Below, one piece after another: positions 11,792 through 47,013 of a DNA stretch of 64,000 nt; the stretch's first letter is position 1, and every line of letters starts with the position of its first letter. Location of the stretch: NCBI GenBank assembly GCA_965651855.1, contig CBFGTW010000006.1:716-64715 (forward strand), given 5' to 3'. A model generated the notes under the pieces. That model searched no databases, was not told where the DNA came from, and was given only the letters and a program-made list of their open reading frames with translations. Both the position numbers and the translations under genes were made by a program. This stretch comes from an uncultured Verrucomicrobiales bacterium (GTDB lineage: Bacteria; Verrucomicrobiota; Verrucomicrobiia; Verrucomicrobiales; Akkermansiaceae).

Positions 11792-12238
11792 ATGAATCCC
11801 TCGCCCCGACCCGCCGCCGAGGAAACCCAGCGCGAGCTTTCCACCGAATGGCTCGAACTGAGCGGCCGCATCCGCGAACTGGCCTCGCGCCTCAAGCCGG
11901 ACACCGATCCCGAGGTGCGCCAGCTCGCCCGCGAATCGCTGCGCATGTGCGGCCATGTCGAACGTCTGCACGCCGATGTCGAGCGCTGGCTCGGCGAGCT
12001 CGCGCCCACCGCCGGCGCGGAGCCTGCGCCCCACGATCAGGAGGAGTCCGAGGACGACGAAGCGCTCAACATCCAGCGCGAGATCCACCAGGACAAGGTG
12101 AGCGTCCGGGATGTGATCAAGGCGCTTTTCCTGTGGCAGGACACGCCGGACGACCGGATGCGCCAGCAGCAGGAAGAGCGCGACAAACGCCGCAAGGCGG
12201 AAGAAGCGCTGCGCGAATCCGGTCACGGTTCCGCATAG
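11792..12238 (+). CDS. Hypothetical acidic coiled-coil protein
   Basis: 148 aa from the ATG at 11792 (MNPSPRPAAEETQRELSTEW...). Composition is charged and helical. No family recognised. The 3' end overlaps the convergent CotH-protein gene by 16 nt. Confidence 0.45.
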   Translation: MNPSPRPAAEETQRELSTEWLELSGRIRELASRLKPDTDPEVRQLARESLRMCGHVERLHADVERWLGELAPTAGAEPAPHDQEESEDDEALNIQREIHQDKVSVRDVIKALFLWQDTPDDRMRQQQEERDKRRKAEEALRESGHGSA

Positions 12239-15200
12239 GTCACCCGCAGGCGCAGGAACCGGGGTGCGTCCGCGGACGCCTCGGCCGGATCGTGCAGCGA
12301 GACGGCTTGGTAGCCGTCCGCCGCCGGTTCCACCGCGGGCATGGCCATGACCGGCGCCCACGTTTCCAGATCCGGGCTGGCCAGGAGCGTGAACTGCAGA
12401 CCGGCATGCTCCGCCGGCCACCGGAAACGCAGGCCGGGAAACCGCCGGTCGCCGGACAGCGACCACGCCAGCCGGATTTCCGGCAGGTCGGCGGCCAGCG
12501 GATCGGTCCCGAGCGCGTACTCGAGGAAGTTCGGCCGGCCGTCACCGTCGGGATCGGCCCCGGGCAGGACGACCGCCGGATCCGCGAGTTGGCCTTGGTT
12601 GAAACGTGCGGCCGCCCAAGCGTCGAAGCTGCCGAGCGCCGGAAGGTCCGTGTCTCCGGGCGCGCCGTGGGGACTGCCGCTGGCCCGCCAGCCGGTCGAC
12701 TCGCTGTCTTGGCTCGGATCCCCCGGAAAGCGCGCCACGAGCGCCGGGCCCGAGCCGTCGGCGGCGGTCGACCAGCCACCCGAATCCGCCCACGTCACTT
12801 CGCGGAGGACGGTTTCCTGCGGCGTGTTGAGGACGATCGTCTCGCCGGAGTTGCTGAGGTTTCCGGAGAACTCGCCGGCCACGGGAAGCCCCGCGCCGTG
12901 GCGGAACTCGAAGGCGTCCGCCGTGTCGACCACCAACACGCGCGCGCCAGGGGCCAGGGTGCGGCCGGTCCACGCGCCGGTGAAATCGAAGTCGATGCCG
13001 CCGGAGAGGAACACGCCCTGGAGATCGACGTGTCGCGTGCCGGTGTTGAGCAGCTCGATGTATTCGAAAACCCCGTCATCGGCGAACCCCGCCGCGATTT
13101 CCGCCGGTGTCGGATCGGCCGGATGATACATGATTTTTGAAATGGCGAGGTTGTGGGGAGTGGCCGGCTCGGTATCGACGAGATAGGTCACCTCGGTGAG
13201 CGCGCTCCACGACCCGCCGCTCCTCGCGCGGAACCGCAACACCTGCTCGCCGCCCGCCGCCAAGACCAGCGGGGTGGGGGAGCTGGTCCGCACGGCCGCG
13301 AGCGACAGGTTCATCGAAATGTCCGAACTGCTTGGATTCGCCTGGTGGATCTCCACCGCGACGACATTCCGCCCCACCGCCAGTGCCTCGGCCGGGATTG
13401 TCATCTCAACGACCGTGTCCTCGATCGCGCTGCCGGTGTAATAGTCGTAAGCGGCATCGACCGGCAGGTTGCCCGCGACGCGCGTGCCGTTGAGATAGAC
13501 CGCGTAGGCGTCGTCATACTCGATCCTCAAGGTGAGCTGCTGGATGCCGTCGTCGTCATCGAGGGTGAACTCGCGGCGGAAGTAGCACGTCGCGTGCTTG
13601 TTGCCCGCCGGCGCGGGAATGACGGTGGCCTCGTCGCCGTCGCCGTAGCCGAGCTCGGCCTGGCCGGCCGGCCAGGCGCTGTCGTCGTAGTCCGGCAACC
13701 GCCACGCCGTTCCCAGATTGCTGCCCTGGCCGAAGTAGCGCCAGCCGTGGGCGGACCAGGGAACCAGCGTCTCGCTGGTGGTGGAGGAGCTGTAGGTGAG
13801 CGCTCCGCTCCTCAACGCGCCGCCGATCTGCCGCGGGTCCGAGCGGTCCGGCATGTGGTGGATCGTGCCGTCGGCGGAGACGACGACCTCCGTTCCGGAA
13901 TCGACGAAGCCCGGCGCGGGAAAAACCAACGGCCCGTCGAGCTGGGGGTAGAGCCCGTCGTTCCGCAGTTGCCCCAGCACGATGCCACCGCGCGGCTGGA
14001 AGTAGCCGAGCAGGGAATCGCGCGCGGCCTGCCACGTTTGCCGCGTCCGCGGGTTGGCGACTTTCGAGTCTCCCCAGCGGGCGCTCTCGGCGATGATGGC
14101 GGAATCGACGGTGCCGCCCAGGCGGTCGATCCGGTCGAGCCAGGCGTCCGCGGTGAGCGCGCCGTCGTGGAACAAGTGTTTCTGCACCCGGTCCGCCCAC
14201 CGCATCCGGTATTCGGCGTTGTTCATCAAATCCTGGTGGATGAACATCGGATTGTAGAAATCGAAGTTCGACTCGTTCGCGCTGGGGTACGGGCCGGTGC
14301 GGTCCTCGTTCACGTTGAAGAGCGAGTGCTCGAAGTCGTGGACGAAGAAGCGGAAGCCCTGTCCGGGGTTGTCCACGCGGCGCCGGCTGCCGGACCAGTT
14401 GTTGGCGCGGTCGTTGCCGAGGAATTGCGAGACCGCGCCGTCGAGATTGCCCGTCCAGAAGGTCAGCAGCATGTAGTCGATGAGATTGTCCACATCGAGC
14501 AGCACCGGCTCGCCGGTGGGCGTCACGCCGTCGGCGGCGAGGCCCATCAGCCGGAAATAGTTCTCGTTCGTCGGATTCGCGCGGTGCGCCTTGGCGGCGT
14601 CAAAAAGCTCCCGCCAGACGCCCAGGTCGCCGTCGGTCGCGCCGGTGGTGTACGAGGAATCGGACTCGGCCTTCACCACGTCGTAATCCAGCTCGTCGCC
14701 GCCGAAATAACTTTCGGCGTAGGCGGCTTCCGTCCGTTCGTCCAAGTCGAACAATCCCCAGTAGTGGCCGTTGAGGAAGAGGTGCACATACTTCACGCGC
14801 GAGCCGGGCTGGCCCATCTCGAGTTGGGCCACGCGCGTGGATTCCTCGCGGAGGAAGGTGTTGCGCGTGTCGCCTTCGAAGGACCACGAGTAGTTCTGGG
14901 AAGTCCGCAGGTCGATCTTGTCGAACTCGTCCGCGCCGTTCCGCCCGAAGAGCGGGAAGCGGAGTTTTCCCTCGCCGTAGCTGCTGCGGAAGAAGAAGCG
15001 GAAGGCGTGCTTCGGATTGTCTGTCGAGCGCGAGAATCCGCCGCGCATGCGCACCCCGGCGTCGATCTGGAAGTCGGCGACGCCGTTCGGCGCCTCGGGC
15101 GTGGGCGGGTTGATCCACTCCATGGACGCCGGGCGTTCCCAGGTGAGTCCGCGACCGAAGGGATTCGAGTAAATGCCCTGCGAGCCGTCGATGTTGAAAA

Positions 15201-21213: not shown

Positions 21214-21318
21214 TCAGCGGCGGCGCCGGCTGGCGAGCAGCCCGAGGGAAACACCATACAACAATACCGCGGAAGGTTCCGGTACCGACACCAGCCCGAA
21301 GTTCGAGAACGTTGGAAT
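21214..21318 (-). pseudogene. Orphan PEP-CTERM sorting-signal remnant
   Basis: The minus-strand frame ends in IPTFSNFGLVSVPEPSAVLLYGVSLGLLASRRRR followed by a stop, which is a complete PEP motif, TM helix and Arg cluster. The upstream in-frame sequence is Arg/Gly-rich and looks non-coding, with no signal peptide. Confidence 0.55.
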
Positions 21319-21409
21319 GTCCTGGCTCCCGGCCGTGCCGCCCACGTGATCGCGTGAGTGACTTGCGTCGGTGCGCGTGCGATAAGCCGAGAGCAATCCC
21401 CCCTGTCCC

Positions 21410-22357
21410 ATGTCCCTGCCCGTCCCCCCACGGGCGGAACGCGCTGTGCCGCCCCATCCCTCGCGGGCGGCCGCGTGGTTCCGCCGAATTCTGCCCGTCC
21501 CCTTGTTGTCCGGCCTGTGCACCTTCGCGTGCGCCGATCCGGTTTTCTGGGGGAGCCGTGCGTTTGGCGCGCACGAAACGAGTGGCGGCAAGGCATGGGG
21601 ACCGGAGTTCACGCTGGAACTCGGCGTGTTCCGCGGCGGCTTCCGGCCGACCCCGGAAAATGTCGACGACTGGCCGGCGCGGTGGATCGCGCTGGGGACC
21701 GCGGTGTTCGATCCCGAGGAAGGTCGCTACGCCGGCCTGGCCGATGATTCCCACCCGCTTCCAGCCGGCGCCGGAGACCGCGTGTTCTTCTGGGCCAGCG
21801 ACGGGAGCGACCTGACGCGCGGCCCGGAGTGGCTGCTGCTCGCGCATCCGGACTGGACGTGGAGCGGGCGGCCCGGCGGACCGCCGGGCTTGCCGAATAT
21901 CTGGATTGCCGAGCAAGCGGCCGAAGCGGTGGTGGGGGAAACGGGCGGCGACCGGCTGGCGACCGTCGCCCTGCGGCCGGCGCCGGTGCCTCTCGAGGCT
22001 TGGCTCGCGCGGTGGTTTCCCCAGGATGTCGGGCTGCGCGATCCCGACGCCGATCCGGACGGCGACGGCTTGAGCAACCGCGCCGAGTACCTGCTCGGCA
22101 GCGACCCGACGGAGGCGACCGCCGGCACGCCTCGGATGAGCTTCACGCCGCACGGGGTCCGGCTGGCGCTCGAGCGGAATCCGTACGCACTCTCCACCGC
22201 CGTCCTCGAGACCAGCGCCGACCTTCGAACCTGGACGCCGGCCGACGCGACGACCGAAACCGAGCGCCCGGACCGGATCGAAATGCTGGCCATCCCGCGG
22301 CCGGGCGAGCGTGCCCGGTTTTTCCGCTTCAACCTCCAACCGGCCGTCGCGGAATGA
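21410..22357 (+). CDS. Secreted protein: unknown ~170-aa domain plus TSP3-like C-terminal module
   Basis: 315 aa with a signal-like N-terminus (WFRRILPVPLLSGLCTFACA). The core is homologous to the protein at 26751..27389 (ELGVFRGGF / ELGAFASGF; EWLLLAHPDWTW / EWLIVGAAEWTW). It ends DPDADPDGDGLSNRAEYLLGSDP...RFFRFNLQP. The stop overlaps the next start (ATGA at 22354..22357). Confidence 0.7.
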   Translation: MSLPVPPRAERAVPPHPSRAAAWFRRILPVPLLSGLCTFACADPVFWGSRAFGAHETSGGKAWGPEFTLELGVFRGGFRPTPENVDDWPARWIALGTAVFDPEEGRYAGLADDSHPLPAGAGDRVFFWASDGSDLTRGPEWLLLAHPDWTWSGRPGGPPGLPNIWIAEQAAEAVVGETGGDRLATVALRPAPVPLEAWLARWFPQDVGLRDPDADPDGDGLSNRAEYLLGSDPTEATAGTPRMSFTPHGVRLALERNPYALSTAVLETSADLRTWTPADATTETERPDRIEMLAIPRPGERARFFRFNLQPAVAE

Positions 22358-25300: not shown

Positions 25301-26736
25301 GGATCAGCGGCGCGCAGAAGCGGCTGATCTACACCCACGCCGGCACCGGCCGACACGATTCGTTCCAGTACACGCTCACCGATCCACACGGCGAAACCTC
25401 CGCGCCGGCAACAGTCGCTCTTTTCATGCCCTACGACTTCGCCGCCTGGGCCGCGGAAACGCCGGGTGCCGACGGAAATCCGGCGTCGAACGGCGATGGC
25501 GACCTCTTTCCCGATCTGCTCGAGTTCGCGCTCGGCGGCGATCCCGCAAGCGGCGCGGATGCGGGTGGCATCGAGATCGAGGCGGATGGAAATGACATCT
25601 CGCTCGTGCTGCGGAGACCGGAAGGGCGCGATGGCGTGAGTTATGCCATCGAGACCAGCGCCGATCTTGCGTCGTGGAACGATGCCGGCGAGCTCCTCCC
25701 GGCGGGAGAGGTTTTCCGCCTCGACGGGCTCCAGCATCAGCCGGGGCTTTCCGCCGACCACGGCTTCGCGCGCTTGCGCGTTACGGGCGGCGGCGCGTCC
25801 ATCGCCACGCTGCCGCTCGGCTGGCGGGCGGTGACGCTGGCCGAGCCGCGGAGCTTCGGCATCCCGTTCCGGAATCCGCCGGTGTTTTCCTCGGCGGTTG
25901 TGGGAATGGACGGCCTGACGCTCCACGTCCACGGCGAACCGCCGGCAACCTTCAGCGGCTACGTGGAGGTGATTGCGGGCGACCATGCCGGCCACCGCTT
26001 CGAGGCGACCGGAATCGCGGACGGCGAAGTCCTGCTGCGCGCCGAGGGACCCCACACGCTCGCGCCGGTGCCGGATCTCACCGGCCAGCGGATCGTGCTG
26101 AGCGCGCACCACACGCTGGGCGGGGTGTTCGACAAGGACGCCTTCGTCGGCTCGACCAATCCCGCTGCGGCGGATCAGGTGCAGATGTATCTGAATGATG
26201 GTGTTTCTCCCCCCGGGTTCGTCTTGTATTATCTCCTCGACGCGCGGCCGAACAATCCGGCCCACCAGTGGCGCGCCTTCCTGCCCGGCGGTGGCAACCA
26301 GGACGACCGGCCGATCCGGCCGGGCCAAGGCGTCTTCGTCAAACGTCCGCCCGACGCCGCTCCCGTCCGCCTGTTGCTCACCGGCCAAGTGCGGGCGAAC
26401 CGTTTCGTCCAGCCGCTGCAACCTGGCGTGAATCTCGTCGGCTCGCCCTTCCCGCTGCCGCTCACGCCGCGGCTGCGCGGTCTGCTCGACCCGGCGGCCG
26501 GGTTTGTCCCCTCCACCAACCTGAACGCGGCCGACCAAGTCCATCTCCATCGCGACGGCGCGTTCCGGATTTACTATTTCCTCGACCACCCGAGTCTGCC
26601 GGACTATTGGCGTGAGGCTGTTCCGGCCAGCCCGAACGCGAACGACCTGCCGCTCTTCTCCCCCGATGAGGCGGTGTTTCTGAAACGTTCGGCGGCGTCT
26701 CCGCTCCATGCGGTGCCGCAGCCGTGGACGCCCTGA
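22354..26736 (+). CDS. Giant secreted multidomain protein: PQQ-dependent sugar-dehydrogenase-like beta-propeller, 2x CxxCH region, PA14, cadherin-like Ig, internal TSP3-like module and a C-terminal ~330-aa domain
   Basis: The ATG at 22354 gives MKRLLLWLALAGPAAAAP. Propeller motifs: HNGGQMFFGPDRFLHVVVGDEG, ILRIDVD, GTRSPHSMHFD and IWIAEVGQGAREEI. CRTCH and CSHCH are present. PA14: GSYTFFTTTDDGVRLWIDG...MEYYENGGGA. Ig-like: LDVLGNDSD...SFQYTLTD. The listed ORF start at 21829 is an out-of-gene extension. Confidence 0.8.
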   Translation: MKRLLLWLALAGPAAAAPGLDSPEPVAPFLDAIFPTTTPGPTGSWAVADAFPNLTFTDPVRMVKDPRGPEHVYIVCRNGEVWRIPFRNSATQAEKVRVLDRRANTWGWWDAGMMSICFHPDFGKPGDPNRGYVYVFYQYVPQQPSPQSVGSPSYMRLSRFTVPDGQVAFDPASEFVLIQQFDRHNWHNGGQMFFGPDRFLHVVVGDEGDANDSHGVAQKIDDRLFSGILRIDVDRDPARSHPIRRQPRTIARPSGWPASFTQGYSIPNDNPWQDPAGAILEEFWTIGTRSPHSMHFDDETGEIWIAEVGQGAREEITVARKAGNHQWPFKEGFVNGPKSKPANLIGTEVPPVYDYPRSIGGCVIGGIVYRGTAHLAALDGKYIFGDHNTRALYSLKRVDGGPPQVEYLTSVNRSGGDKRGLAGICEGPDGEVYFMELGDNGTNTGKILKLVRNGTPVADPPQWLSQTGAFSDIATLTPRSGLMPFGVNAALWTDGAVKSRWIAVPNDGSHDTAAEQVTYREEGAFDFPVGTVLVKHFALPVDARDPSVVEPVETRFLVHGTSGWYGVTYRWNEDGTDAELLPGGATRDFTITAEDGSQHVQRWSFPSRSDCRTCHTAEAGHVLGARSHQLNGSYTYPQTGRIANQLETWNALGIFGMSFGGREPAALPRSVDPHDPHASLDHRVRSYLDSNCSHCHHPGGVTANFDARFSTRLIAQNFVGGAVNRPFHSPHERVVKAGDPALSLLHIRNAAVGAGQMPPLGKNVVDAAAVALIEDWIRGLDEATFTATTPAERGIEGNYYAGRNFGAPAFTRTDAAIDFDWGSGSPGGSLGVDDFSVRWRAWIVPPAAGSYTFFTTTDDGVRLWIDGTLVIDKWQDQSPTEHSGSITLTGDPVEMVMEYYENGGGAVAKLAWSGPGLAKQIIPASAFFSTFGENAGPVAEDDDFEATHAAVAPLDVLGNDSDDSLPGIHGIAIVTPPRHGTVRISGAQKRLIYTHAGTGRHDSFQYTLTDPHGETSAPATVALFMPYDFAAWAAETPGADGNPASNGDGDLFPDLLEFALGGDPASGADAGGIEIEADGNDISLVLRRPEGRDGVSYAIETSADLASWNDAGELLPAGEVFRLDGLQHQPGLSADHGFARLRVTGGGASIATLPLGWRAVTLAEPRSFGIPFRNPPVFSSAVVGMDGLTLHVHGEPPATFSGYVEVIAGDHAGHRFEATGIADGEVLLRAEGPHTLAPVPDLTGQRIVLSAHHTLGGVFDKDAFVGSTNPAAADQVQMYLNDGVSPPGFVLYYLLDARPNNPAHQWRAFLPGGGNQDDRPIRPGQGVFVKRPPDAAPVRLLLTGQVRANRFVQPLQPGVNLVGSPFPLPLTPRLRGLLDPAAGFVPSTNLNAADQVHLHRDGAFRIYYFLDHPSLPDYWREAVPASPNANDLPLFSPDEAVFLKRSAASPLHAVPQPWTP

Positions 26737-26750
26737 CATTCCCCCCTGTC

Positions 26751-27389
26751 ATGAAAACATCCCTGTCATCCCCCCGTGGCGGTCTGATCCTGCTCGCAAG
26801 CGCGGGCATTTCATCCGCGCAGAACCTCACGCTGCCGGGCACCCAGATCGCCTGGGCGAGCGACGCCTTTGCCACCAATCTGATGGCCGATGGCATCACC
26901 ACCTTCGAGGCCAGCGGCAAGACGATCCATTTCGAGCTCGGCGCCTTCGCCAGCGGCTTCGATCCCGGCAGCGCCACGCCCGAGGCGCTGATCCTGAACT
27001 GGACGCCCATCCAGTCCACGCACTACGACCCGGACGACCAGCAGTTCATCCAGACCGCGGACCTGCTGAACAATGACGCGCCGTTCACCTTCGGAGGCCA
27101 AGCCTACATCTGGGGTTACACCAGCAGGGACCTGGAGAACGACGCCGAATGGCTGATTGTCGGCGCCGCGGAGTGGACCTGGCCGAGTGCGAGCGCCCCG
27201 TTGCCGACGACCTTCTCGATGGGCGACGCCAGCCCCGGCGAGGCACTCGTGGGCGCGGTGAACAGCGGGAGTTTCCACATGAAGCTTGGCTCCGTCACCG
27301 CCACGGCGATCCCCGAGCCGGCGGCGCCGCTGCTGCTGGCGGCCGCCGCCTTCGCCTTCGGAACGAGGAGAAACCGGACGCGCTGTTAG
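26751..27389 (+). CDS. PEP-CTERM protein, paralogue of the core of 21410..22357
   Basis: The ATG at 26751 gives signal peptide MKTSLSSPRGGLILLASAGISSAQ. The C-terminus is AIPEPAAPLLLAAAAFAFGTRRNRTRC. Confidence 0.8.
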   Translation: MKTSLSSPRGGLILLASAGISSAQNLTLPGTQIAWASDAFATNLMADGITTFEASGKTIHFELGAFASGFDPGSATPEALILNWTPIQSTHYDPDDQQFIQTADLLNNDAPFTFGGQAYIWGYTSRDLENDAEWLIVGAAEWTWPSASAPLPTTFSMGDASPGEALVGAVNSGSFHMKLGSVTATAIPEPAAPLLLAAAAFAFGTRRNRTRC

Positions 27390-30948: not shown

Positions 30949-32484
30949 ATGAATTTCCGCCCACTCGCGACTGCCGCCGCCTCCGCGGGTTTGGCCGTGG
31001 CCGGCGCGGCGGAGATCCGCGACTACGATCCGCCGCGGCACGACCGGTTCACCGGCTTTCCCGAAGCGCCGGCATGGAACGACGCGGCTTGGTTCGGTAG
31101 CCGGGACTACAGCGCCGTCGGATGGTCCACGGTGAATCCGCGCTTCCAGTATGCTCTCGTCTCGCCGCGGCACTTCGTCTACGCCGCGCACAACGCCCCC
31201 GTCGGCGGCACGATCCTCCGGTTTCTCGACAAACAGGGAAATCTTGTCGAGCGCGGCATCGCGGCCCGCGAGGTGATCCGGAACGCCGACGGCACCGCCA
31301 CCGATCTCGCACTCGGGACGCTCGACGCGCCGGTCGGGGAGAGCGTCGGATTCTTTCCCGTGTTGAACTTGCCGTCGGACTCCGCCTATCCCGGCACGGA
31401 GCTGGTGGTCTTCGGTTGGGACGCGCGCGCCGGCCGCAGTGTGTTCGACGGCTTCCACGACGGGGTGATTTCCGGCACGGGCGAGACGCGTCTCTACAAG
31501 TTCCTCTATCGCAAGAACGGCGGCAGCGGGGATGACATTTATCTGGTTCACGGCGATTCCGGCAGCCCGACTTTCGGTCTGGCGGGCGGCGCGCCGGCCT
31601 TGGTCGGCACGCACTCGGCGGCCGCGGAAAACACGGTGACGCGCACGAGTTATGACACGTTCGTGCCGGCCTATCTCGCGCAGCTCGACGCGGCGATGGA
31701 CCCGCTCGGCCATCGGATCACCCGCGCCTATCCGGAGCCGGTCGAGCTGGCGGCGGGTCTGGAAACCGCCCCCGCCACGCTCCGGCAAGCCGCCGCGGGC
31801 AGTGCGACGTTTTCCATCTCGAACGCCGCTGCGGCCGATGCGGCGAACGTCCGGTTCACGCTCGCCTTCCCGCAAGACGCCCCGCCGGACGAGCTCGTCG
31901 CGGGCGAGGGCTGGATCGTGGAAACCGCGGGAACCCCCGCGTGGACGCTCCGCCGCGGCGGCATCGACGCCGCGGAATCCGCCACCGTCACCGCCAGTTG
32001 GGACGCCCTGCCCACCGTGGACGAGCTGCGGGTTTCCCTGACTTGGCTCGCGGACGGCAGCCCGCTGAAAACGCGGGAGTTCGATCTCGCGCCGGCGCCG
32101 TCCTACGTCGCGTGGAGCGCCGGGCTGCCGGATGCGGATCCCGCCGCCGATCCGGACGACGATGAAGTGCCGAATCTCCTCGAATACGCCTTCGGCGGCG
32201 ATCCCTCGCTGCCGGACCGCGCCTCCATCATGCCGGTGTTCTCGATCGACGGAGGGCGCGGGACGCTGACGTTTCCCATGCGGACGGACGCGGAACTACG
32301 AGGCATCTCGTACTTCGTCGAGTGGTCCTCGTCGCTCGACGGCTGGTCGTCCGACCCGCCGCCCGGCTGGACGACGGAGAACGTCGCGGCGGGCGAGGGC
32401 TTCGTGCGGCGGATCGTTTCCTTCGACGCCAGCGGCCGCTTGTTCGGCAGGGTGCGCGTCCAGCTCGACGAAACCGCGGATTGA
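30949..32484 (+). CDS. Secreted trypsin-like serine protease with TSP3-like C-terminal module
   Basis: The ATG at 30949 gives signal MNFRPLATAAASAGLAVAGAAE. Catalytic triad candidates are YAAHN, TDLALG and GDSGSPTFG. The C-terminus is DADPAADPDDDEVPNLLEYAFGGDP...LFGRVRVQLDE. Confidence 0.75.
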   Translation: MNFRPLATAAASAGLAVAGAAEIRDYDPPRHDRFTGFPEAPAWNDAAWFGSRDYSAVGWSTVNPRFQYALVSPRHFVYAAHNAPVGGTILRFLDKQGNLVERGIAAREVIRNADGTATDLALGTLDAPVGESVGFFPVLNLPSDSAYPGTELVVFGWDARAGRSVFDGFHDGVISGTGETRLYKFLYRKNGGSGDDIYLVHGDSGSPTFGLAGGAPALVGTHSAAAENTVTRTSYDTFVPAYLAQLDAAMDPLGHRITRAYPEPVELAAGLETAPATLRQAAAGSATFSISNAAAADAANVRFTLAFPQDAPPDELVAGEGWIVETAGTPAWTLRRGGIDAAESATVTASWDALPTVDELRVSLTWLADGSPLKTREFDLAPAPSYVAWSAGLPDADPAADPDDDEVPNLLEYAFGGDPSLPDRASIMPVFSIDGGRGTLTFPMRTDAELRGISYFVEWSSSLDGWSSDPPPGWTTENVAAGEGFVRRIVSFDASGRLFGRVRVQLDETAD

Positions 32485-37817: not shown

Positions 37818-37888
37818 CGTTTCCCCGCTATAGACGAGGACCGCGGCCTCGGCAACGGCGGCGGACGGCGGAAAAATCGGGTCGTCCC

Positions 37889-40591: not shown

Positions 40592-41851
40592 TCAGGTGCG
40601 CCGCTGGAGCCACTCCGCGGCCTGCCATCCGGCCGCCGAGTCCCCCGCGCCATCCCGCCACTGGCCGGGAGTCATTCCGTGGTGGTCCTTGAACAACCGG
40701 CAGAGGTTCTTCGCGTTCGTCAGGCCGCACTCCATGGCGATGGTCTCGAGCTTGAGCCCGGTCTCGCGGAGCAGCCGGCCGGCGGCGTCGAGGCGGCGGC
40801 GCATGAGATCCTCGCTGATCGTCGTGCCGACCATGGCCGGATACAGCCGCTGCAGCGTCCGGGTCGAGACCCCGGCCTCGCGGGCGAGGAGGGAAACGCT
40901 CAAGGGCTGGGCGAAATCGCGCCGGATGCGCATCACCACCTTCGAGATCGCCGGGTCCGGGCAGACGAAGGTGGCGGTGGACCTCCGCTCTTCCACGCGC
41001 ACCGGCGGCACCACCGCGCGGCGGGCACGCAGCGGTTTCCCATCCATGAGCCGCTGCAGCATCAGCGCGGCCGTTTGCCCGGCGACGGCCAGGTTCATGT
41101 CGATCGACGAGACGGGCACCGGCGACCGCCCGTGAATCAGCGCGCGGTTCTCGCAGCCGAGCACGGCGAGATCGTGCGGCACGTCGAGACCGAGTTCGAG
41201 AGCCACCGTCACCGCGTCGAGGGCGAAACGGTCGTCATCGGTCATCAGGCCGCACGGCAGCGGCAGGGCGGCGAGTTGTTTCTCCAGCCAGTCGCGGCGG
41301 TGGACGCGCGTCATTCGCTCGAGCGGCAGGTGGTCGGCGTGGGCCGCCGTGTAATCGAGCACCAACGGCCGCACCCCCGCCGCGGCGCAGGTGTCCATGA
41401 ACGAGCGGAACAAGTCCTGGTCGGTGCGGGAGTGGCAAAAGCGGTAGTAGGCGAGGTGCGGCATGCCGAGCGAGAGCAGGTGCCGCGCGGCCATCTCGCC
41501 GGCGCGGTTGAAGCCGAGCTCGACGGTCGGCAGGTTGTCCGGCGGCAGGTCCTGCGTCGAGGGCGCGGCGTCCGCAAGCAGGCGCACCAGCGGCCCCTTG
41601 AAATCCCGCGCCCAGCCGGCGACCAGGTCGGTCTCGGTGGTGCAGATCACGCCGTCAGGCGTCCAGTCGGACGGAAAAGGCTGGCCATGGTGGCCGCGGC
41701 AGCGCTCGTCCTCGAGATCCCAGTCCAGCGCCTTCGCCGCCTCCACCACGCCGGCGTGCAGCTCCGGGTAGTAGTGGTCCAGCACCAGGAACACGACCTT
41801 GCGCCGGCTCCTCGCCTGCGATCGCCGCGGCCCGCGTTTCCCGTCGTCCAT
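40592..41851 (-). CDS. XylR-like AraC-family transcriptional regulator (periplasmic-binding-protein-like sensor plus HTH_AraC)
   Basis: The C-terminus LSVSLLAREAGVSTRTLQRLY...IAMECGLTNAKNLCRLFKDHHGMTPGQWR is a classic AraC HTH pair. The N-terminal ~270 aa is LacI/PBP-like. Start chosen at the ATG at 41851. Confidence 0.8.
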   Translation of the reverse strand: MDDGKRGPRRSQARSRRKVVFLVLDHYYPELHAGVVEAAKALDWDLEDERCRGHHGQPFPSDWTPDGVICTTETDLVAGWARDFKGPLVRLLADAAPSTQDLPPDNLPTVELGFNRAGEMAARHLLSLGMPHLAYYRFCHSRTDQDLFRSFMDTCAAAGVRPLVLDYTAAHADHLPLERMTRVHRRDWLEKQLAALPLPCGLMTDDDRFALDAVTVALELGLDVPHDLAVLGCENRALIHGRSPVPVSSIDMNLAVAGQTAALMLQRLMDGKPLRARRAVVPPVRVEERRSTATFVCPDPAISKVVMRIRRDFAQPLSVSLLAREAGVSTRTLQRLYPAMVGTTISEDLMRRRLDAAGRLLRETGLKLETIAMECGLTNAKNLCRLFKDHHGMTPGQWRDGAGDSAAGWQAAEWLQRRT

Positions 41852-42050
41852 GTTCCCGCCTCTAGCCAGCCGCCGGTCATCGCACAAGGGGGAACGACGG
41901 TGGCGCGAACCGGGGATCGAATGGCGCGGACCGGGAATTCTTTCCCATCGCCATCCTGTGGCTGTCATACAAGTTGGCTACCCCATTCCGGGGATGGGCG
42001 TGCGACAGCGCCAATTCCCGGGAGGGCCTTCCAGAACCCCAAGTACCCGA

Positions 42051-43841
42051 ATGAAACCAAGAAACCCCAGCCACTTGCTGGCGGCCGGCGCGCTCGCGTT
42101 GGTCTTCTCCGCCTCCGACTCCCATGCCCAGACCGACCGGATCTGGACGCCCGGCGACCAAGGCGACTTCAGCGATTCCGCGAACTACGACAACGGCGCG
42201 CCCGTCGCGGGCGATTCCGTTTTCTCCGACGGCAGCGGGTCCATCATCGAGTTCGGCGCGGACGACAGCATCTCGCTGAACGTCCTCCGCCTGAACGGCA
42301 ACAGCGGCGCGACCGTCTTCAACCACGACGGCGGCACGCTCACGGTGAACACCCTGACCTTCGGCGGCGCGGGCGGCTCGCGGAATCCCACCTACAACCT
42401 CTCGGCCGGCACCCTCAACACCCAGACCGCCTTCACCTGGGGCAGCGGCAGCAACGCCCGCTTCAACATGACCGGCGGCACCGTGAACCACGCGCCCGGC
42501 AACTTCTTCAGCCTCGGCACGGCCGGCGGAGCGAATGGTGCGATCGTCATGAGCGGCGGCACCTTCAACGCCAACGCGGTGACCAACTTCCGCCTCGGCG
42601 GATCCAATGGCGGGACCGGCGGCCTCGACCTCTCGGGCGACGCCGTCTTCAGCGCCACCGCCAGCGGCACGACCTACCTGGGCAACAACGGCGGCTCGGG
42701 CTACATCACGATGAGCGGAAACTCCCAGCTCGACCTCGATGCCATGGCCGTCTCGATCGGCCAGTTCGGCAACGGCACGGGCACGCTCACCATGGCGGAC
42801 GACGCCACGCTCACCGCCGGACGGATCGTCATCGGCGGCGACAACAACTCCAGTGCGATCACCGGCGTCATCCACCTCGACGGCGGCACGATCGCGACCG
42901 CTGCGATTCAGCGCGGTTCGAGCAGCGTCGCTCCCAGTGCCACCCAGAATGTCCTCCACGGCAATGGCGGCACGATCCGGGTGACGGCGGACGCGCGGAA
43001 CGCCGACTTCTTCGGCCGCAACGACGGCAGCGCCGGCGGCCTCTACGTGAACCTCGAGGCCGGCGGGCTGAACTTCGACACCAACGGCAACGCCACCACC
43101 ATCGCCGACGACGTGACGGTGGCCGGGACCGGCGGGCTGACGAAGCAAGGCGCCGGCACGCTCACCCTCAACGCCACCACCACCTACGCCGGTCTCACCC
43201 GCATCGAAGGCGGCACGCTCGCCCTCGGCGGGGACGGCTCGGTGACGGACAGCTCGGGCATCGACATCGCGACAGGCGCGGCGCTCGACGTTTCCGGCCT
43301 GAATGCCGCGACCTTCACCGTCGGCTCGGGCCAGACCTTGTCCGGCTCCGGCGCGATCGTCGCCACCGGCAAGACCGTCCAGATCGACGGCGCGTTGAAC
43401 ATCGGCGCCAGCCCCGGGCTGATGACCGTCACCGGCAGCGTCAATCTCGCCGGCACGACCTTCATGGAAATCGACGGCCCGGGAGCCGCGGGCGTCGGCT
43501 ACGACTCGCTCTCGGTTTCCGAAACCTTGAGCTATGGCGGCGACCTCAGCGTGCTCTTCGGCGCGGCGCTCACCAGCGGGACGTTCAATCTCTTCGAAGC
43601 GGACACGCTCGCGGACAGCTCGAACTTCACGACCGTCTCGGTGAACGGCTACGGCGACGATCCGATCGATCTGAGCCGCACGGACCGACTGTGGACCGGC
43701 GGCGACGGCAACGGGATCACGTTCAGCTTCGATGAAGCGAGCGGCGTGTTCACCGTGGTGCCGGAGCCCTCGCAGGCGGTGTTGGCCGCCCTCGGCGCGC
43801 TGGCGCTTGGCATTCGCCGAAGCCGGGCCGTCCGGGCCTGA
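42051..43841 (+). CDS. PATR (autotransporter-associated beta-strand repeat) protein with PEP-CTERM anchor
   Basis: The ATG at 42051 is followed by a signal peptide. PATR unit: LTKQGAGTLTLNATTTYAGLTRIEGGTLALGG. The C-terminus is VVPEPSQAVLAALGALALGIRRSRAVRA. Confidence 0.85.
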   Translation: MKPRNPSHLLAAGALALVFSASDSHAQTDRIWTPGDQGDFSDSANYDNGAPVAGDSVFSDGSGSIIEFGADDSISLNVLRLNGNSGATVFNHDGGTLTVNTLTFGGAGGSRNPTYNLSAGTLNTQTAFTWGSGSNARFNMTGGTVNHAPGNFFSLGTAGGANGAIVMSGGTFNANAVTNFRLGGSNGGTGGLDLSGDAVFSATASGTTYLGNNGGSGYITMSGNSQLDLDAMAVSIGQFGNGTGTLTMADDATLTAGRIVIGGDNNSSAITGVIHLDGGTIATAAIQRGSSSVAPSATQNVLHGNGGTIRVTADARNADFFGRNDGSAGGLYVNLEAGGLNFDTNGNATTIADDVTVAGTGGLTKQGAGTLTLNATTTYAGLTRIEGGTLALGGDGSVTDSSGIDIATGAALDVSGLNAATFTVGSGQTLSGSGAIVATGKTVQIDGALNIGASPGLMTVTGSVNLAGTTFMEIDGPGAAGVGYDSLSVSETLSYGGDLSVLFGAALTSGTFNLFEADTLADSSNFTTVSVNGYGDDPIDLSRTDRLWTGGDGNGITFSFDEASGVFTVVPEPSQAVLAALGALALGIRRSRAVRA

Positions 43842-44013: not shown

Positions 44014-47013
44014 ATGAAACGCAGATATCTCTGTTCCGCCTCGCGCCGCCATGCCGGCGCGGCAGGCACCGCCCTCATTGTACTCGCCTTCAGCCAGGCC
44101 CACGCGCAGACGCTGCGGACGTGGATTTCCGGCACCGAAGGAAACTTCGGCACGGCCGAAAATTACGTCGACGGCATCGCCCCGGTGGCCGGCGATTCGG
44201 TCGATGTCAACGGCGCCGGCAGCGTCGTCGAGTTCACCGAAGCGAACACCATCACGCTCGTGAACCTCCGTCTCGCCGAGCCGGCGACGGGTGGCACGCC
44301 GGTCTTCAACCACACCGGCGGCGACCTCACCTTGACCGGCCTCCTCCAGCTCAGCGGCGGCGGCGCGAGCCGGAATCCGACCTACAACCTGAGCGGCGGC
44401 ACCTTGACCACGCCGACCCTCGCCTGGAGCCAAGGCAGCAATGTCACCTACAACCAGACCGGCGGCGTGGCGGACATCACCGGCACGGCCGACTTCAACA
44501 TCGCGCGCCGCGGTTCGTTCAGCCTGGCGAACGACGCGGTTTTCAATGCGGCGGCCACCGGTGCGATCTTCACGGCCAACGGCGGCGGCGCGGTCGGCAA
44601 TGTCTTCCTCGGCGGCACCGCGCGGTTCAACGCCCCGGACGCCACCTTCGTCGTCGGCCAGTTCGGCGACGGAGCCAGCGCGACGCTCCTGATCCAGGAC
44701 GCTGCGGAACTGACGGTGGAAGCCATCACCGTCGGCAACAACAACGCGGGCAGCGCCACCAACGGCATGATCTACCTCGACGGCGGTGTCATCACCACCG
44801 GCTCGATCCACAAGGGCGCCAGCTCGCTCACCGCCGGGCCGACCCAACTCGCCCTGATCGCCAACGGCGGCACGGTCCGCGCGTCGGCGCACGCGAACAA
44901 CGCCAACTTCTTCCAGAATTTGTACGTGGATCTGGACGCCGGCGGCCTGACCTTCGACACCAACGACAACTTCGTCATCATCGCCAACACCCTCCACGGG
45001 ACCGGCGGCCTGACCAAGACCGGTGGAGACGCCCTGCAACTCAACGGCTTCAACACCTACTCCGGCGACACGGTCGTGGAGCAAGGCACGCTGGTCCTCA
45101 ACAGCGCCAGCCTGCACGACGAGAGCGCGTTGACCGTCGCGGATGACGCCGTCGTGGATCTCCTCCACGGAGTTGAGGACCGGGTGGCTTCCCTCACGCT
45201 CGGAACGCAGACCTTCACCACCGGGACGTTCGGCTCGCCGTTCTCCAATGCCGACAACAAGAGCGACTACTTCGCGGGCACGGGCCTCATCCGGCTCGGC
45301 GAAGCACCGGAAGGTCGCGAACTCGTCTGGACCGGGGCCGAGAGTTCGTTCTGGGGCACGCTCTTCGCCGAGGACAACTTCGTTCTCGCCGGCACGGAAA
45401 CCGCCGCCGCATTCCAAAACGGCGACCACGTCACCTTCGACGACAGCGGGGTGATCCTCGAGCCCGAGGACCCGAGCGACGAAAACAGCCCGCTGGTCCC
45501 CCGCCCGGTGAACATCGATGCGGTGCAGCCTGGCAGCACGACCGTCGAAGGCACCGCGGACTGGATCTTCCAGGCGAGCACCGGCGGCATCGCCGGCGAC
45601 GGCGGAATCACCTCGAGCACCAGCGGCACCGTCAGTCTCGGCGGCACGAACACCTTCCTCGGACCGGTGGAGGTGAATGCCGGCCGGATCGTGATGACCA
45701 CCAACCAAGCCCTCGGCAACAGCTCCGGCGTGACCGTCGCCGAAGGCGCGCAAGTGGACATCGGCGGCGCCGCTCCCGGGGCGCTCTACACCTTCACCAT
45801 CGCCGGGGACGGACCGGACGGCGCGGGCGCGATCACCAACACCGGCGGCGAGGTCTTCAGCGCCAGCCCGGTGAAAGACCTGGTGCTCGCCGGCGATGCC
45901 AGCATCGGCGGCGACGGCGCGCGCTTCGACATCGGCGGTGGCGGCGGAATCCTCACGGCAAACGGTCACACGCTGACCAAGACCGGCACGAACACGATGG
46001 GCTTCCGCGCCGACGCGGAGGGAGCGGCGATCGTCATCGAGGAAGGATCCGTGTTCGGCCAGGGCAGCGGCAATGCCTTCGGCGGCACGAGCGGCTCGCT
46101 CACCATCCGCAACGGCGCGCGCGCCGGATCATGGCAGTCGCTGACCATCCCCACCGCGGTCACGATCGAGGACGGAGGCGCGCTCTACAACCAAGGCGCC
46201 GGCACCGGCACCTGGAGCGGCGCGTTCACCTTGCAAGGAAACGTGACGGTCGACGCCGGTGACGGACCGATCCAGATGACGGGCGCCGTCAGTGGCACGG
46301 CGAATCTGACCAAGACCGGCGGCAACACGCTCACCCTCGCCAACCCCGGCCACGCCGGCGACACGACGGTGGACGCCGGCACGCTCAGCCTCGGTGCGGC
46401 CGGCCTTGCGGACACCGGAAACGTGGCGGTCAACGGCACGGCGGTGCTCGACCTCGCCCACGGCGCCGAAGACACCGTCGCCACCCTGACATTCGATGGT
46501 CAACCCGCCGCCACGGGCACCTGGGGAGCGCCCGGCTCGGGCGCGGCGAACATCGACGAGGCCCGCTTCACCGGCTCCGGCACCCTGCTCGTGCTCGACC
46601 AACTCGAGCCGCCCGCCGGATACGCCTCGTGGGCTGCGGGCTTCGGCCTCGAAGGCGCCGAGGCAGCGCCCGATGCCGATCCGGATGGCGACGGCATCGC
46701 GAATGCCCTCGAGTTTGTCCTCGGCGGTGATCCGACCCTCCCGTCACAGGACCTGCTGCCCACGGTATCCGCCAACGGCGAAACCGTGACCTTCACCTTC
46801 CTGCGGGACGACGCTTCGGAAACGTCGGGCACCGCCGTGTCCGTCCAGCACAGCGACGATCTGGAAACCTGGACCACCCTCGACATCGGCGCGGCCTCCG
46901 CAGGTGAAGTCACCATCGAGGAAAATGGCGACGAACCGGACCTCGTGACCGTCACGCTGCCGAAGAACGGCGACACCCATCTCTTCCTCCGCCTGCGCGT
47001 GGTGGTGGATTGA
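44014..47013 (+). CDS. PATR-repeat protein with TSP3-like C-terminal module, tandem paralogue of 42051..43841
   Basis: The ATG at 44014 is followed by a signal ending AFSQAHAQ. PATR units: LTKTGGDALQLNGFNTYSGDTVVEQGTLVL and LTKTGGNTLTLANPGHAGDTTVDAGTLSLG. The C-terminus is DADPDGDGIANALEFVLGGDP...LFLRLRVVVD. Confidence 0.85.
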   Translation: MKRRYLCSASRRHAGAAGTALIVLAFSQAHAQTLRTWISGTEGNFGTAENYVDGIAPVAGDSVDVNGAGSVVEFTEANTITLVNLRLAEPATGGTPVFNHTGGDLTLTGLLQLSGGGASRNPTYNLSGGTLTTPTLAWSQGSNVTYNQTGGVADITGTADFNIARRGSFSLANDAVFNAAATGAIFTANGGGAVGNVFLGGTARFNAPDATFVVGQFGDGASATLLIQDAAELTVEAITVGNNNAGSATNGMIYLDGGVITTGSIHKGASSLTAGPTQLALIANGGTVRASAHANNANFFQNLYVDLDAGGLTFDTNDNFVIIANTLHGTGGLTKTGGDALQLNGFNTYSGDTVVEQGTLVLNSASLHDESALTVADDAVVDLLHGVEDRVASLTLGTQTFTTGTFGSPFSNADNKSDYFAGTGLIRLGEAPEGRELVWTGAESSFWGTLFAEDNFVLAGTETAAAFQNGDHVTFDDSGVILEPEDPSDENSPLVPRPVNIDAVQPGSTTVEGTADWIFQASTGGIAGDGGITSSTSGTVSLGGTNTFLGPVEVNAGRIVMTTNQALGNSSGVTVAEGAQVDIGGAAPGALYTFTIAGDGPDGAGAITNTGGEVFSASPVKDLVLAGDASIGGDGARFDIGGGGGILTANGHTLTKTGTNTMGFRADAEGAAIVIEEGSVFGQGSGNAFGGTSGSLTIRNGARAGSWQSLTIPTAVTIEDGGALYNQGAGTGTWSGAFTLQGNVTVDAGDGPIQMTGAVSGTANLTKTGGNTLTLANPGHAGDTTVDAGTLSLGAAGLADTGNVAVNGTAVLDLAHGAEDTVATLTFDGQPAATGTWGAPGSGAANIDEARFTGSGTLLVLDQLEPPAGYASWAAGFGLEGAEAAPDADPDGDGIANALEFVLGGDPTLPSQDLLPTVSANGETVTFTFLRDDASETSGTAVSVQHSDDLETWTTLDIGAASAGEVTIEENGDEPDLVTVTLPKNGDTHLFLRLRVVVD

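What the first reader, a model, noticed from the sequence alone, without database searches (positions are those of the whole stretch)
22041..22354. Recurrent C-terminal module (DxDxDGDG-xN-xxEY-xxG-xDP plus ~90 aa ending F/L-x-R-L/V-R/K-V) on six unrelated secreted proteins: a candidate second sorting or anchoring tag alongside PEP-CTERM
**Where it occurs.** The same ~105-115-aa module ends five proteins and occurs once internally.
- CotH giant protein, 12226..12565: DPDGDGRPNFLEYALGTDP...SPDLETW...RFLRLRVTYAEP.
- The 315-aa protein, 22041..22354: DPDGDGLSNRAEYLLGSDP...SADLRTW...RFFRFNLQP.
- Trypsin-like protease, 32131..32481: DPDDDEVPNLLEYAFGGDP...SSLDGW...LFGRVRVQL.
- PATR protein, 46672..47010: DPDGDGIANALEFVLGGDP...SDDLETW...LFLRLRVVVD.
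- Arylsulfatase, 48574..48925: DPDGDGLPNFGEWAFGTNP...SEDLEAW...LFVRVSAVSP.
- Internal copy in the giant dehydrogenase-like protein, 25478..25795: NGDGDLFPDLLEFALGGDP...SADLASW...GFARLRVTGG.

**Shared layout.** Each copy has a TSP3-like calcium-binding loop, then the E-Y/F-x-x-G-x-D/N-P turn. Next come a few predicted beta strands, an S-x-D-L-x-x-W motif and a terminal hydrophobic-Arg-hydrophobic-Arg/Lys-Val strand.

**Why it looks like a tag.** It decorates enzymatically unrelated cargo (a kinase-like protein, a protease, a sulfatase and adhesin-like repeat proteins). It is mutually exclusive with PEP-CTERM on the same protein. That is the behaviour expected of a sorting, attachment or secretion tag rather than a catalytic domain. 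I cannot name a curated family that covers the whole module.
Basis: partly seen in the sequence, partly recalled or inferred. Interest (0 to 1): 0.72.

Follow-up and report, generated by a model that had tools for sequence, protein, structure and literature searches.

The report
Uncurated C-terminal calcium-loop beta-sandwich domain
Six exported proteins in this window carry the same roughly 120-residue end-piece, a calcium-binding loop packed on a small beta-sandwich; it sits at the very C-terminus of thousands of unrelated Verrucomicrobiota proteins, has no curated family, and probably targets or holds them at the cell envelope.

Summary
Six copies of a 105-135 aa module lie at the stated places: five at the C-terminus and one internal. 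A beta-only HMM built from 52 outside sequences finds exactly these six (E 6e-18 to 8e-10).

Each unit has a short aromatic-x-x-W helix, an EF-hand/TSP3-like 12-residue loop and a six-stranded beta-sandwich ending F-x-R-h-x-h. AlphaFold2 gives one compact domain (pLDDT 91.5, pTM 0.81).

- **No known family.** Nothing covers the beta part in Pfam, NCBIfam, PDB sequences, or Foldseek against PDB and BFVD.
- **Position.** In a loop-seeded sample of GTDB genomes, 69 of 98 complete ORFs place the loop 96-130 aa before the stop. About 94% of recognised modules are terminal, nearly all in Verrucomicrobiota.
- **Cargo.** It is very diverse, and most members start with signal-peptide-like N-termini.
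- **PEP-CTERM swap.** Three paralogue pairs in the window carry either PEP-CTERM or the module.

The "tag" reading is only partly supported. Tandem arrays and internal copies exist, one module-plus-PEP-CTERM hybrid was found, no linked machinery gene recurs, and cleavage is untested.

My best reading is a calcium-stabilised envelope-retention domain. A T9SS-CTD-like export signal remains a serious rival.

The parts
21989..22354 (+). Module of the 315-aa protein (gene 21410-22357). It has a helix (PLEAWLARW), an EF-hand-like loop DPDGDGLSNRAE at 22052-22087, a six-strand beta-sandwich and a last strand FFRFNL at 22319-22336, followed by a 6-aa tail.
   Evidence: AF2 model: pLDDT 91.5, pTM 0.81. 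Orthologues in Akkermansiaceae keep the module.
12226..12630 (-). Terminal module of the 1672-aa LTD/PA14/CHB_HEX_C/CotH protein (gene 12223-17241). The loop is at 12520-12555 and the last strand FLRLRV at 12241-12258. The protein ends ...TYAEP.
32101..32481 (+). Terminal module of the protease-like protein (ORF 30838-32484; the likely start is 30949, MNFRPL...). The loop DPDDDEVPNLLE is at 32149-32184 and the last strand FGRVRV at 32443-32460.
   Evidence: The trypsin similarity is only E 0.006.
46618..47010 (+). Terminal module of the PATR beta-helix protein (likely gene 44014-47013). The loop is at 46678-46713 and the last strand FLRLRV at 46984-47001.
   Evidence: It is 38% identical over about 500 aa to the adjacent PATR protein 41799-43841, which ends in PEP-CTERM.
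48574..48978 (-). Terminal module of the 1207-aa sulfatase (gene 48571-52194). The loop is at 48874-48909 and the last strand FVRVSA at 48583-48600. The protein ends ...AVSP.
   Evidence: The domain just upstream (aa 829-1071) is homologous to the PEP-CTERM protein 52271-53176.
25432..25788 (+). Internal module copy in the 1461-aa GSDH / dihaem cytochrome / PA14 / Big_9 protein (gene about 22351-26736). The loop NGDGDLFPDLLE is at 25489-25524 and the last strand FARLRV at 25765-25782. About 315 aa of an unassigned conserved domain follow it.
   Evidence: The same module-then-C-terminal-domain layout is seen in P0218, P0143, P0073, P0077 and P0196.
41799..43841 (+). PATR protein ending in PEP-CTERM. 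It is the paralogue of the module-bearing PATR protein next to it.
52268..53176 (-). 302-aa protein ending in PEP-CTERM. It is the paralogue of sulfatase residues 1-289 (47% identity) and 829-1071 (33%).
26724..27389 (+). 221-aa PEP-CTERM protein whose N-domain is homologous to the N-domain of the 315-aa module protein (27% over 112 aa, E 1e-10).

Best explanation
The module is an autonomous C-terminal domain of about 105-135 residues. One EF-hand/TSP3-like calcium loop, flanked by short helices, packs against a six-stranded beta-sandwich. It belongs to a very large family, essentially confined to Verrucomicrobiota, that no curated model covers.

Proposed mechanism (inferred, not shown):
1. 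The carrier protein is exported by Sec.
2. Outside the cytoplasm the loop binds calcium and the domain folds.
3. The domain then holds its cargo at the cell envelope by non-covalent binding to an envelope component, such as LPS or exopolysaccharide, or to a protein partner.

On this view it plays the same positional role as PEP-CTERM on sister proteins. Tandem copies would add avidity.
For: **Shown**
- Six homologous copies, detected independently of the loop.
- A compact, confident fold: 3 helices plus 6 strands, pLDDT 91.5, pTM 0.81.
- EF-hand ligand positions 1, 3, 5, 9 and 12 (D26, D28, D30, N34, E37) are at least 90% conserved in 58 sequences.
- The only PDB sequence resemblance is to calmodulin and calcineurin-B calcium loops, and it is sub-threshold.
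- Placement is terminal: 65 of 75, 69 of 98 and 62 of 66. Usually only 0-7 residues follow the last strand.
- Cargo is unrelated: 55 Pfam families in 52 proteins, many of them non-enzymatic adhesin-like repeats and propellers.
- N-termini look like signal peptides.
- Three paralogue pairs in this window have the same cargo ending either in PEP-CTERM or in the module. One pair is PATR passengers, which normally need a C-terminal anchor or translocator.
- Tandem arrays of 2-5 units occur, as is typical of avidity-based binding modules.
- Among orthologues the module is as conserved as its cargo (44-52% against 45% identity).
- No dedicated gene recurs nearby.
Against: - No ligand or partner is identified.
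- Calcium binding is inferred from sequence only.
- Ordinary binding modules (CBMs, Ig/Fn3) are not usually this strictly terminal, and most carriers have a single copy (58 of 66). Both features fit a recognition signal better.
- Half of the terminal copies end in proline (35 of 69), which this model does not explain.
- Localisation of any carrier has not been measured.
Confidence: 0.4

Rival explanations
1. Export or attachment signal read by dedicated machinery. The folded C-terminal domain would be recognised in the periplasm by a still unknown Verrucomicrobiota outer-membrane translocation or sortase-like system, as the T9SS C-terminal domain is in Bacteroidota. It might then be removed or covalently attached.
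For: - The statistics match T9SS CTDs: a beta-sandwich of about 100 aa, single copy in most carriers (58 of 66), and an end within a few residues of the stop.
- Carriers are Sec-dependent and cargo is highly diverse.
- The family is restricted to one phylum and is dense here, with six copies in 64 kb.
- It swaps with PEP-CTERM, a true sorting signal, on paralogues.
- A C-terminal proline is strongly enriched (35 of 69), which hints at a constraint on the free end.
Against: - There is no match to T9SS CTD models (NCBIfam and Pfam) and no CTD structure is retrieved by Foldseek.
- Tandem arrays and internal copies exist, including the GSDH copy here.
- One protein has the module followed by PEP-CTERM.
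- No recurrent neighbouring gene was found, though T9SS genes are also unlinked from their cargo.
- No machinery candidate was identified.
Confidence: 0.27
2. Ordinary ligand- or substrate-binding or structural beta-sandwich domain (CBM/discoidin/Fn3-like) with no targeting role. Its C-terminal bias would simply reflect easy gain of 3' cassettes.
For: - There is weak similarity of the beta part to the C-terminal half of F5/8 type C (E 0.017-0.13) and to DUF3999 (E 0.002-0.025).
- Three of 52 outside members reach E 8e-10 against DUF3999.
- Tandem and internal copies exist.
- The window carriers are rich in other accessory domains (PA14, Big_9, CHB_HEX_C).
Against: - All these matches are below the curated cut-offs.
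- Foldseek finds no CBM or discoidin fold (TM at most 0.42).
- About 90% terminal placement with tails of 0-7 aa is unusual for accessory domains.
- Much of the cargo is not carbohydrate-active: CotH kinase-like, PQQ dehydrogenase/cytochrome, PATR, RCC1 and propellers.
- It alternates with PEP-CTERM.
Confidence: 0.2
3. Dockerin-like assembly module. The calcium-dependent C-terminal domain would plug diverse enzymes onto a scaffold protein with cohesin-like receptors.
For: - It carries a calcium-loop-plus-helix element at the C-terminus of many unrelated secreted proteins.
- That combination is the hallmark of dockerins.
Against: - There is a single loop, not the duplicated 22-residue dockerin segments.
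- There is no Pfam dockerin hit even at E up to 1.
- A beta-sandwich is fused to the loop.
- No scaffold-like partner was seen in the window or in 68 loci.
Confidence: 0.06

Closest known systems
T9SS C-terminal domain (CTD) of Bacteroidota cargo (abstracts of PMC4804311 and PMC11285876, seen)
   Same: - It is a folded beta-sandwich of about 80-100 aa at the extreme C-terminus of Sec-exported proteins.
- It decorates functionally unrelated cargo.
- It occurs in many copies per genome and is restricted to one phylum.
   Different: - Sequence: there is no similarity (no TIGR04183-type hit).
- Fold: the CTD is a 3+4 seven-strand Ig-like sandwich, whereas this model has six strands plus an EF-hand-like helix-loop-helix.
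- Copy number: this module also occurs in tandem and internally.
- Host: the host phylum is not known to have a T9SS (from the cited abstracts, not tested here).
- Processing: cleavage is untested.
PEP-CTERM / exosortase sorting signal
   Same: - It is a C-terminal appendage of secreted proteins in the same genome.
- It is interchangeable with the module on three paralogue pairs in this window.
   Different: - PEP-CTERM is a motif of about 25 aa: PEP, a transmembrane helix and a basic tail.
- The module is a soluble folded domain with none of these features.
Bacterial TSP3 repeat (Pfam PF18884) / canonical EF-hand loop
   Same: - The loop D-x-D-x-D-G-x-x-N-x-x-E has ligand positions 1, 3, 5, 9 and 12 conserved.
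- It scores at the borderline of TSP3_bac (25.7 bits against a cut-off of 25).
- Calmodulin loops are its best PDB sequence matches.
   Different: - There is one loop per unit, not arrays of TSP3 repeats or paired EF-hands.
- The loop is an integral part of a larger domain whose beta part has no family.
Type I dockerin
   Same: - It is a calcium-loop-based module.
- It is mostly C-terminal and sits on diverse secreted enzymes.
   Different: - No dockerin HMM match was found.
- It has a single loop and a beta-sandwich is attached.
- No cohesin-like partner is known.
F5/8 type C (discoidin) domain and DUF3999 (PF13163)
   Same: - It shares the S-x-D-x-x-x-W hairpin and the terminal aromatic-x-R-h-x-h strand pattern.
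- Weak HMM matches fall on the C-terminal half of those models.
   Different: - All matches are below the gathering cut-offs.
- The module has roughly half the strands of a discoidin jelly roll.
- No structural match was found.

Membership tests
Pfam TSP3_bac (PF18884) | HMM score at or above the gathering cut-off (25 bits) | tested here: inconclusive
   - The 315-aa protein's module scores 25.7 bits alone and 23.6 bits as part of the whole protein.
- The CotH copy scores 13.1 bits.
- The other four copies give no hit.
Pfam TSP3_bac (PF18884) | Occurs as arrays of several consecutive repeats | tested here: not met
   There is one loop per module in all six copies. Multi-TSP3 proteins are a different set of hits.
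EF-hand calcium loop | 12-residue loop with oxygen ligands at positions 1, 3, 5, 9 and 12, and Gly at position 6 | tested here: met
   - D26, D28, D30 and N34 are at least 90% conserved and E37 is invariant in the 58-sequence alignment A2.
- The exit helix begins at loop position 9-10 in the model.
- Actual calcium binding was not testable.
EF-hand calcium loop | Paired helix-loop-helix motifs forming an EF-hand domain; Pfam EF-hand match | tested here: not met
   - There is a single loop per unit.
- The only Pfam EF-hand_1 hit, on one sister-branch sequence, is at E 0.074.
- The PDB profile search gives calmodulin at E 0.014-0.7 only.
T9SS C-terminal domain | Match to the curated CTD models (TIGR04183 / Por_Secre_tail, type B CTD) | tested here: not met
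   NCBIfam and Pfam scans of the six modules at E up to 1 gave no such hit.
T9SS C-terminal domain | Seven-strand 3+4 Ig-like beta-sandwich | tested here: not met
   - The model has six strands plus three helices.
- Foldseek against PDB gives no hit at E below 0.07 and retrieves no CTD structure.
T9SS C-terminal domain | Strictly C-terminal on Sec-exported, functionally diverse cargo | tested here: met
   About 6-10% of copies are exceptions, and tandem copies exist.
T9SS C-terminal domain | Host encodes T9SS (PorK/L/M/N, SprA, PorU/V); CTD removed by PorU | not testable with these tools
   - Only a 64-kb window is available, and it holds no such genes.
- The cited abstracts state that T9SS is restricted to Bacteroidota.
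PEP-CTERM | PEP motif, hydrophobic transmembrane stretch and basic tail at the C-terminus | tested here: not met
   A regex that recognises the four window PEP-CTERM proteins is negative for all six module proteins. Pfam and NCBIfam give no PEP-CTERM hit on them.
Dockerin (PF00404) | Two duplicated calcium-loop/helix segments; HMM match | tested here: not met
   There is no dockerin hit at E up to 1, and each unit has a single loop.
F5/8 type C / DUF3999 (galactose-binding-like) | HMM score above the gathering cut-off; eight-strand jelly roll | tested here: not met
   - The best scores are 15.7 and 17.7 bits against cut-offs of 28.2 and 30.
- The model has six strands and no structural match.
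- Three of 52 outside members reach E 8e-10 to DUF3999, so a remote relationship is possible.

The most novel reading that the evidence does not exclude
The module is the cargo signal of an undescribed outer-membrane export or surface-attachment system of Verrucomicrobiota and Kiritimatiellota. It would be a functional counterpart of the T9SS C-terminal domain, operating alongside PEP-CTERM/exosortase. Its machinery could be found by phylogenetic profiling against per-genome module counts.
Probability: 0.25. Interest if true: 0.85.

Novelty: new variant of a known kind. Interest (0 to 1): 0.62.

Why it matters
Verrucomicrobiota are major degraders of sulfated and other complex polysaccharides, and they export hundreds of enzymes and adhesins. 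How these proteins cross or stay on the outer membrane is largely unknown apart from PEP-CTERM.

This is a single domain with no curated model. The six-copy profile drew 35,005 cluster representatives at E up to 0.001, although about half of the 149 best were multi-TSP3 proteins without the beta part. The domain ends proteins of many unrelated kinds and alternates with PEP-CTERM on paralogues, which gives a concrete handle on that question.

- **Annotation.** An HMM for it would give a domain assignment to the currently unassigned C-terminal region of many proteins.
- **Genomics.** The family is testable by phylogenetic profiling.
- **Experiment.** It is testable by reporter fusions and C-terminal proteomics in cultured Luteolibacter, Haloferula or Prosthecobacter.

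If it proves to be an anchor or export signal, it would also be a tool for surface display in these organisms.

Tried and rejected
- **Curated libraries.** Pfam and NCBIfam scans of the six modules, the whole proteins and the sister branch gave only borderline TSP3_bac hits for the loop. The beta part drew only weak, sub-threshold hits to DUF3999 and F5/8 type C.
- **Solved structures by sequence.** A profile search of PDB sequences found only sub-threshold calmodulin loops.
- **Structure comparison.** Foldseek of the confident model against PDB and BFVD found nothing at E below 0.02. Only generic Ig/Fn3-like folds appeared, with TM at most 0.42.
- **Related loci from alignments.** I replaced it with a degenerate DNA pattern scan.
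- **Representative search.** The list from the six-copy profile was half made up of multi-TSP3 proteins. I filtered it with a beta-only HMM.
- **Source organism.** The exact proteins are in an unnamed 65,290-bp NCBI/ENA contig, and the look-up of encoding contigs returned nothing. The closest named orthologue is from an Akkermansiaceae MAG.
- **Second structure prediction.** AF2 of the internal copy plus the following 310-aa domain, using a five-sequence alignment, failed (pLDDT 41). That domain stays unassigned.
- **Cargo-less proteins.** Small two-module proteins looked like cargo-less carriers but are N-terminally truncated fragments. I dropped that argument.
- **Neighbourhood clustering.** In 68 loci no gene recurred in more than four loci.
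- **Literature.** Five full-text searches found no description of the module.
- **Rejected ideas.**
  - Type I secretion: the carriers have Sec signal peptides.
  - Autotransporter barrel: the fold is a soluble six-strand sandwich.
  - L,D-transpeptidase attachment through a conserved C-terminal residue: the last residues are not conserved, apart from frequent Pro.
Full report
**1. The observation**

Translating the six ORFs shows the described module in each. The window has 68% G+C, and the carriers have the GC3 profile of real genes.

MAFFT of the six copies gives 23-34% pairwise identity to the first copy. Invariant residues include P, D and D of the loop, E and G of the E-Y-x-x-G turn, P of D-P, S/L/W of S-x-D-L-x-x-W, and F and R of the last strand.

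An HMM built from the six finds only those six in a six-frame translation of the window, but that test is circular. I therefore built an HMM of the beta part alone, from 52 external sequences and without the calcium loop. It again finds exactly the six copies (E 6e-18 to 8e-10) and nothing else among 497 translated segments.

The unit is longer than described. A conserved aromatic-x-x-W helix lies 20-25 residues upstream of the loop in every copy. The quoted start, 22041, is one base out of codon phase, which is immaterial.

**2. The carriers**

| Carrier | Pfam/NCBIfam content |
|---|---|
| 1672-aa protein | LTD, PA14, CHB_HEX_C, CotH |
| 1207-aa protein | Sulfatase |
| PATR protein | PATR / TIGR02601 repeats |
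| 1461-aa protein | GSDH, SO2930-type dihaem cytochrome, PA14, Big_9 |
| Protease-like protein | Trypsin at E 0.006 only |
| 315-aa protein, N-domain | no family |

All six begin with signal-peptide-like N-termini, judged by reading the sequence.

**3. What the module is**

No curated model covers it.
- Pfam gives only TSP3_bac for the loop (25.7 bits at best, cut-off 25).
- The beta part gets sub-threshold hits to DUF3999 and to the C-terminal half of F5/8 type C.
- NCBIfam gives nothing.

The loop reads D-P-D-G-D-G-x-x-N-x-x-E. In a 58-sequence alignment, D26, D28, D30, N34 and E37 are invariant or at least 90% conserved. These are EF-hand ligand positions 1, 3, 5, 9 and 12. A profile search of PDB sequences returns only calmodulin and calcineurin-B loops, sub-threshold, aligned on exactly this stretch.

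AlphaFold2 with that alignment gives a single compact domain (pLDDT 91.5, pTM 0.81). It has helices at 6-13, 18-21 and 34-40 and six strands. The model amounts to one helix-loop-helix calcium site packed on a small sandwich.

Foldseek finds no specific relative. Against PDB the best E is 0.07 and TM is at most 0.40. Against BFVD the best E is 0.02 and TM is at most 0.42. Only generic Ig/Fn3/cytokine-receptor folds appear.

**4. How widespread, and where in proteins**

*Representative search.* The six-copy profile against 1.84 billion cluster representatives gives 35,005 hits at E up to 0.001 and 4,575 at E up to 1e-10. About half of the best 149 are multi-TSP3 proteins without the beta part. 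Of the 75 that do have the beta domain:
- 65 have their last copy within 15 residues of the C-terminus.
- 47 carry 2-5 tandem units. This figure is inflated because summed scores favour multi-copy proteins.
- Two of the remaining 10 end in divergent terminal copies.

*Fragments.* Among 64 short fragments from the word-indexed search, nearly all full-length modules end 0-5 residues from the stop.

*Loop-seeded sample.* For a sample not chosen on the beta part, I scanned one genome per GTDB species for the loop-plus-turn DNA pattern. The scan stopped at 120 loci.
- 69 of 98 complete ORFs have the loop 96-130 residues before the stop.
- In Verrucomicrobiota the figure is 62 of 73. Two further cases are in Kiritimatiellota.
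- Archaeal, Lentisphaerota, Planctomycetota and other hits mostly show the loop in other contexts.
- With the full-module HMM, 62 of 66 recognised modules are terminal once four early-ending alignments are corrected, and 58 are single-copy.
- 50 of the 69 end with [FY]-x-R-h-x-h in the last 15 residues, against 2 of 29 of the others.
- 35 of the 69 have proline as the very last residue.

*Sister branch.* A second branch (…E-F-x-A-G-T-D-P-T-N-x-x-S … F-Y-R-V-R-L-x-P) is missed by the beta HMM. It has the same length and ending, and it is homologous by profile-profile comparison of the beta parts alone (hhalign probability 88%, E 3e-6). It too lacks a curated family.

*Cargo and export.* Cargo in 52 outside carriers spans 55 Pfam families: LamG, beta-propellers, alpha-amylase/CBM48, RCC1, Big_9, SASA, PKD, Fn3, PATR, PA14, pentaxin and others. 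Forty of 52 full-length carriers have a signal-peptide-like hydrophobic segment, against 4 of 52 in a control region. The rest look N-terminally truncated.

**5. Relation to PEP-CTERM**

The window holds four PEP-CTERM proteins and one relic tail. Three of the four are paralogues of module carriers.

| PEP-CTERM protein | Module carrier | Similarity |
|---|---|---|
| PATR protein 41799-43841 | adjacent PATR protein | 38% over about 500 aa |
| 302-aa protein 52271-53176 | sulfatase aa 1-289 | 47% |
| 302-aa protein 52271-53176 | sulfatase aa 829-1071, the domain just before the module | 33% |
| 221-aa protein 26724-27389 | 315-aa protein, N-domain | E 1e-10 |

So the same cargo takes either ending. 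Outside the window, only one of about 300 proteins combines both: P0050, where the module is followed by PEP-CTERM.

**6. Search for machinery**

- The window holds no plausible machinery. Its other genes are metabolic, regulatory or further secreted proteins.
- Clustering all ORFs of 68 module-bearing loci finds no neighbour family in more than four loci.
- A dedicated system, if it exists, is therefore unlinked from its cargo, as is true of T9SS.

**7. Interpretation**

*Shown.* This is a folded, conserved domain. Among orthologues it is as conserved as its cargo. It carries an EF-hand-type site, sits almost always at the extreme C-terminus of Sec-exported proteins of unrelated function, is concentrated in Verrucomicrobiota, and alternates with PEP-CTERM.

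*Inferred.* It directs or holds cargo at the envelope. I favour non-covalent, calcium-stabilised retention (confidence 0.40), for three reasons:
- The unit is a complete domain.
- Tandem arrays and some internal copies exist.
- No machinery is evident.

The T9SS-CTD-like signal model (0.27) is a close rival. It fits the mostly single-copy, strictly terminal placement and the unexplained C-terminal proline. A plain binding or structural domain (0.20) and a dockerin-like module (0.06) are less likely.

- There is no lack of C-terminal bias.
- There is no match to a characterised CBM or Ig family.
- The machinery and cleavage test remains open.

**8. Novelty**

Five full-text searches found no description of the module. 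The T9SS literature provides the nearest analogue. The calcium loop is a known motif, but the whole unit is an uncurated domain family, so I rate it a new variant of a known kind (C-terminal targeting or anchoring domains).

**9. Limits**

The closest named orthologue is from an Akkermansiaceae MAG.
- No coordinates of the model were available for surface analysis.
- The domain that follows the internal copy could not be modelled.
- Calcium binding, ligand, localisation and processing are all untested.

Noticed in passing
window 21214-21411 (-): A 65-codon ORF ends in a perfect PEP-CTERM tail (…VSVPEPSAVLLYGVSLGLLASRRRR). It has no signal peptide, and its start abuts the start of the 315-aa gene on the other strand. 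It looks like the relic 3' end of a PEP-CTERM gene.
   Followed up: partly
window 25800-26733 (+): About 310 aa of a conserved, unassigned domain follow the internal module copy (motifs STNPAAADQ…YYLLDARP…HQWRAF and ADQ…FRIYYFLDHP…WREA). The same module-then-domain layout recurs in P0218, P0143, P0073, P0077 and P0196. There is no Pfam or NCBIfam hit, and AF2 with five sequences failed (pLDDT 41).
   Followed up: partly
loci L002-L120: Half of the terminal modules (35 of 69) end with proline as the very last residue, usually 1-4 residues after the F-x-R-h-x-h strand. Two window copies do so (…TYAEP, …AVSP). This is unexplained.
   Followed up: partly
loci L012, L021, L027, L055, L080, L082, L113 and others: A sister branch of the module (E-F-x-A-G-T-D-P-T-N-x-x-S … R-Y/F-Y-R-V-R-L-V-P) has the same length and terminal position. 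It is homologous by hhalign (probability 88%) and also lacks a curated family.
   Followed up: yes
P0050 (148-aa fragment, outside the window): This is the only protein seen with the module followed by a PEP-CTERM tail. The two endings are therefore not absolutely exclusive.
   Followed up: partly
window 35232-37988 (-): A 919-aa GcpE/IspG ORF has an additional Pfam Y1_Tnp (IS200-like transposase) match at residues 509-574 (E 7e-9), inside or after the enzyme domains.
   Followed up: no
window 32489-34414 (-) and 17291-18070 (+): There are two YkuD L,D-transpeptidase genes. One is fused to a long ankyrin-repeat region (642 aa) and lies immediately downstream of the protease-like module carrier on the opposite strand.
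   Followed up: no
window 53360-56562 (-): An ECF-type sigma factor (sigma-70 r2/r4 at the C-terminal end of a 604-codon ORF, so the real gene is probably shorter) sits with a FecR-domain protein. The pair is directly beside the PEP-CTERM paralogue and the module-bearing sulfatase.
   Followed up: no
window 8175-9272 (-) and 47087-48622 (-): An FGE-sulfatase (formylglycine-generating enzyme-like) gene and a second, plain 512-aa sulfatase without the module lie in the same window as the module-bearing sulfatase.
   Followed up: no
loci L009, L042, L046, L052, L067, L068, L070, L072 and others: The exact loop-plus-turn motif also occurs in archaeal (Poseidoniales, Thermoplasmatota) and other non-Verrucomicrobiota MAGs. 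There it is mostly not 96-130 residues from a stop and has no recognisable beta part.
   Followed up: partly
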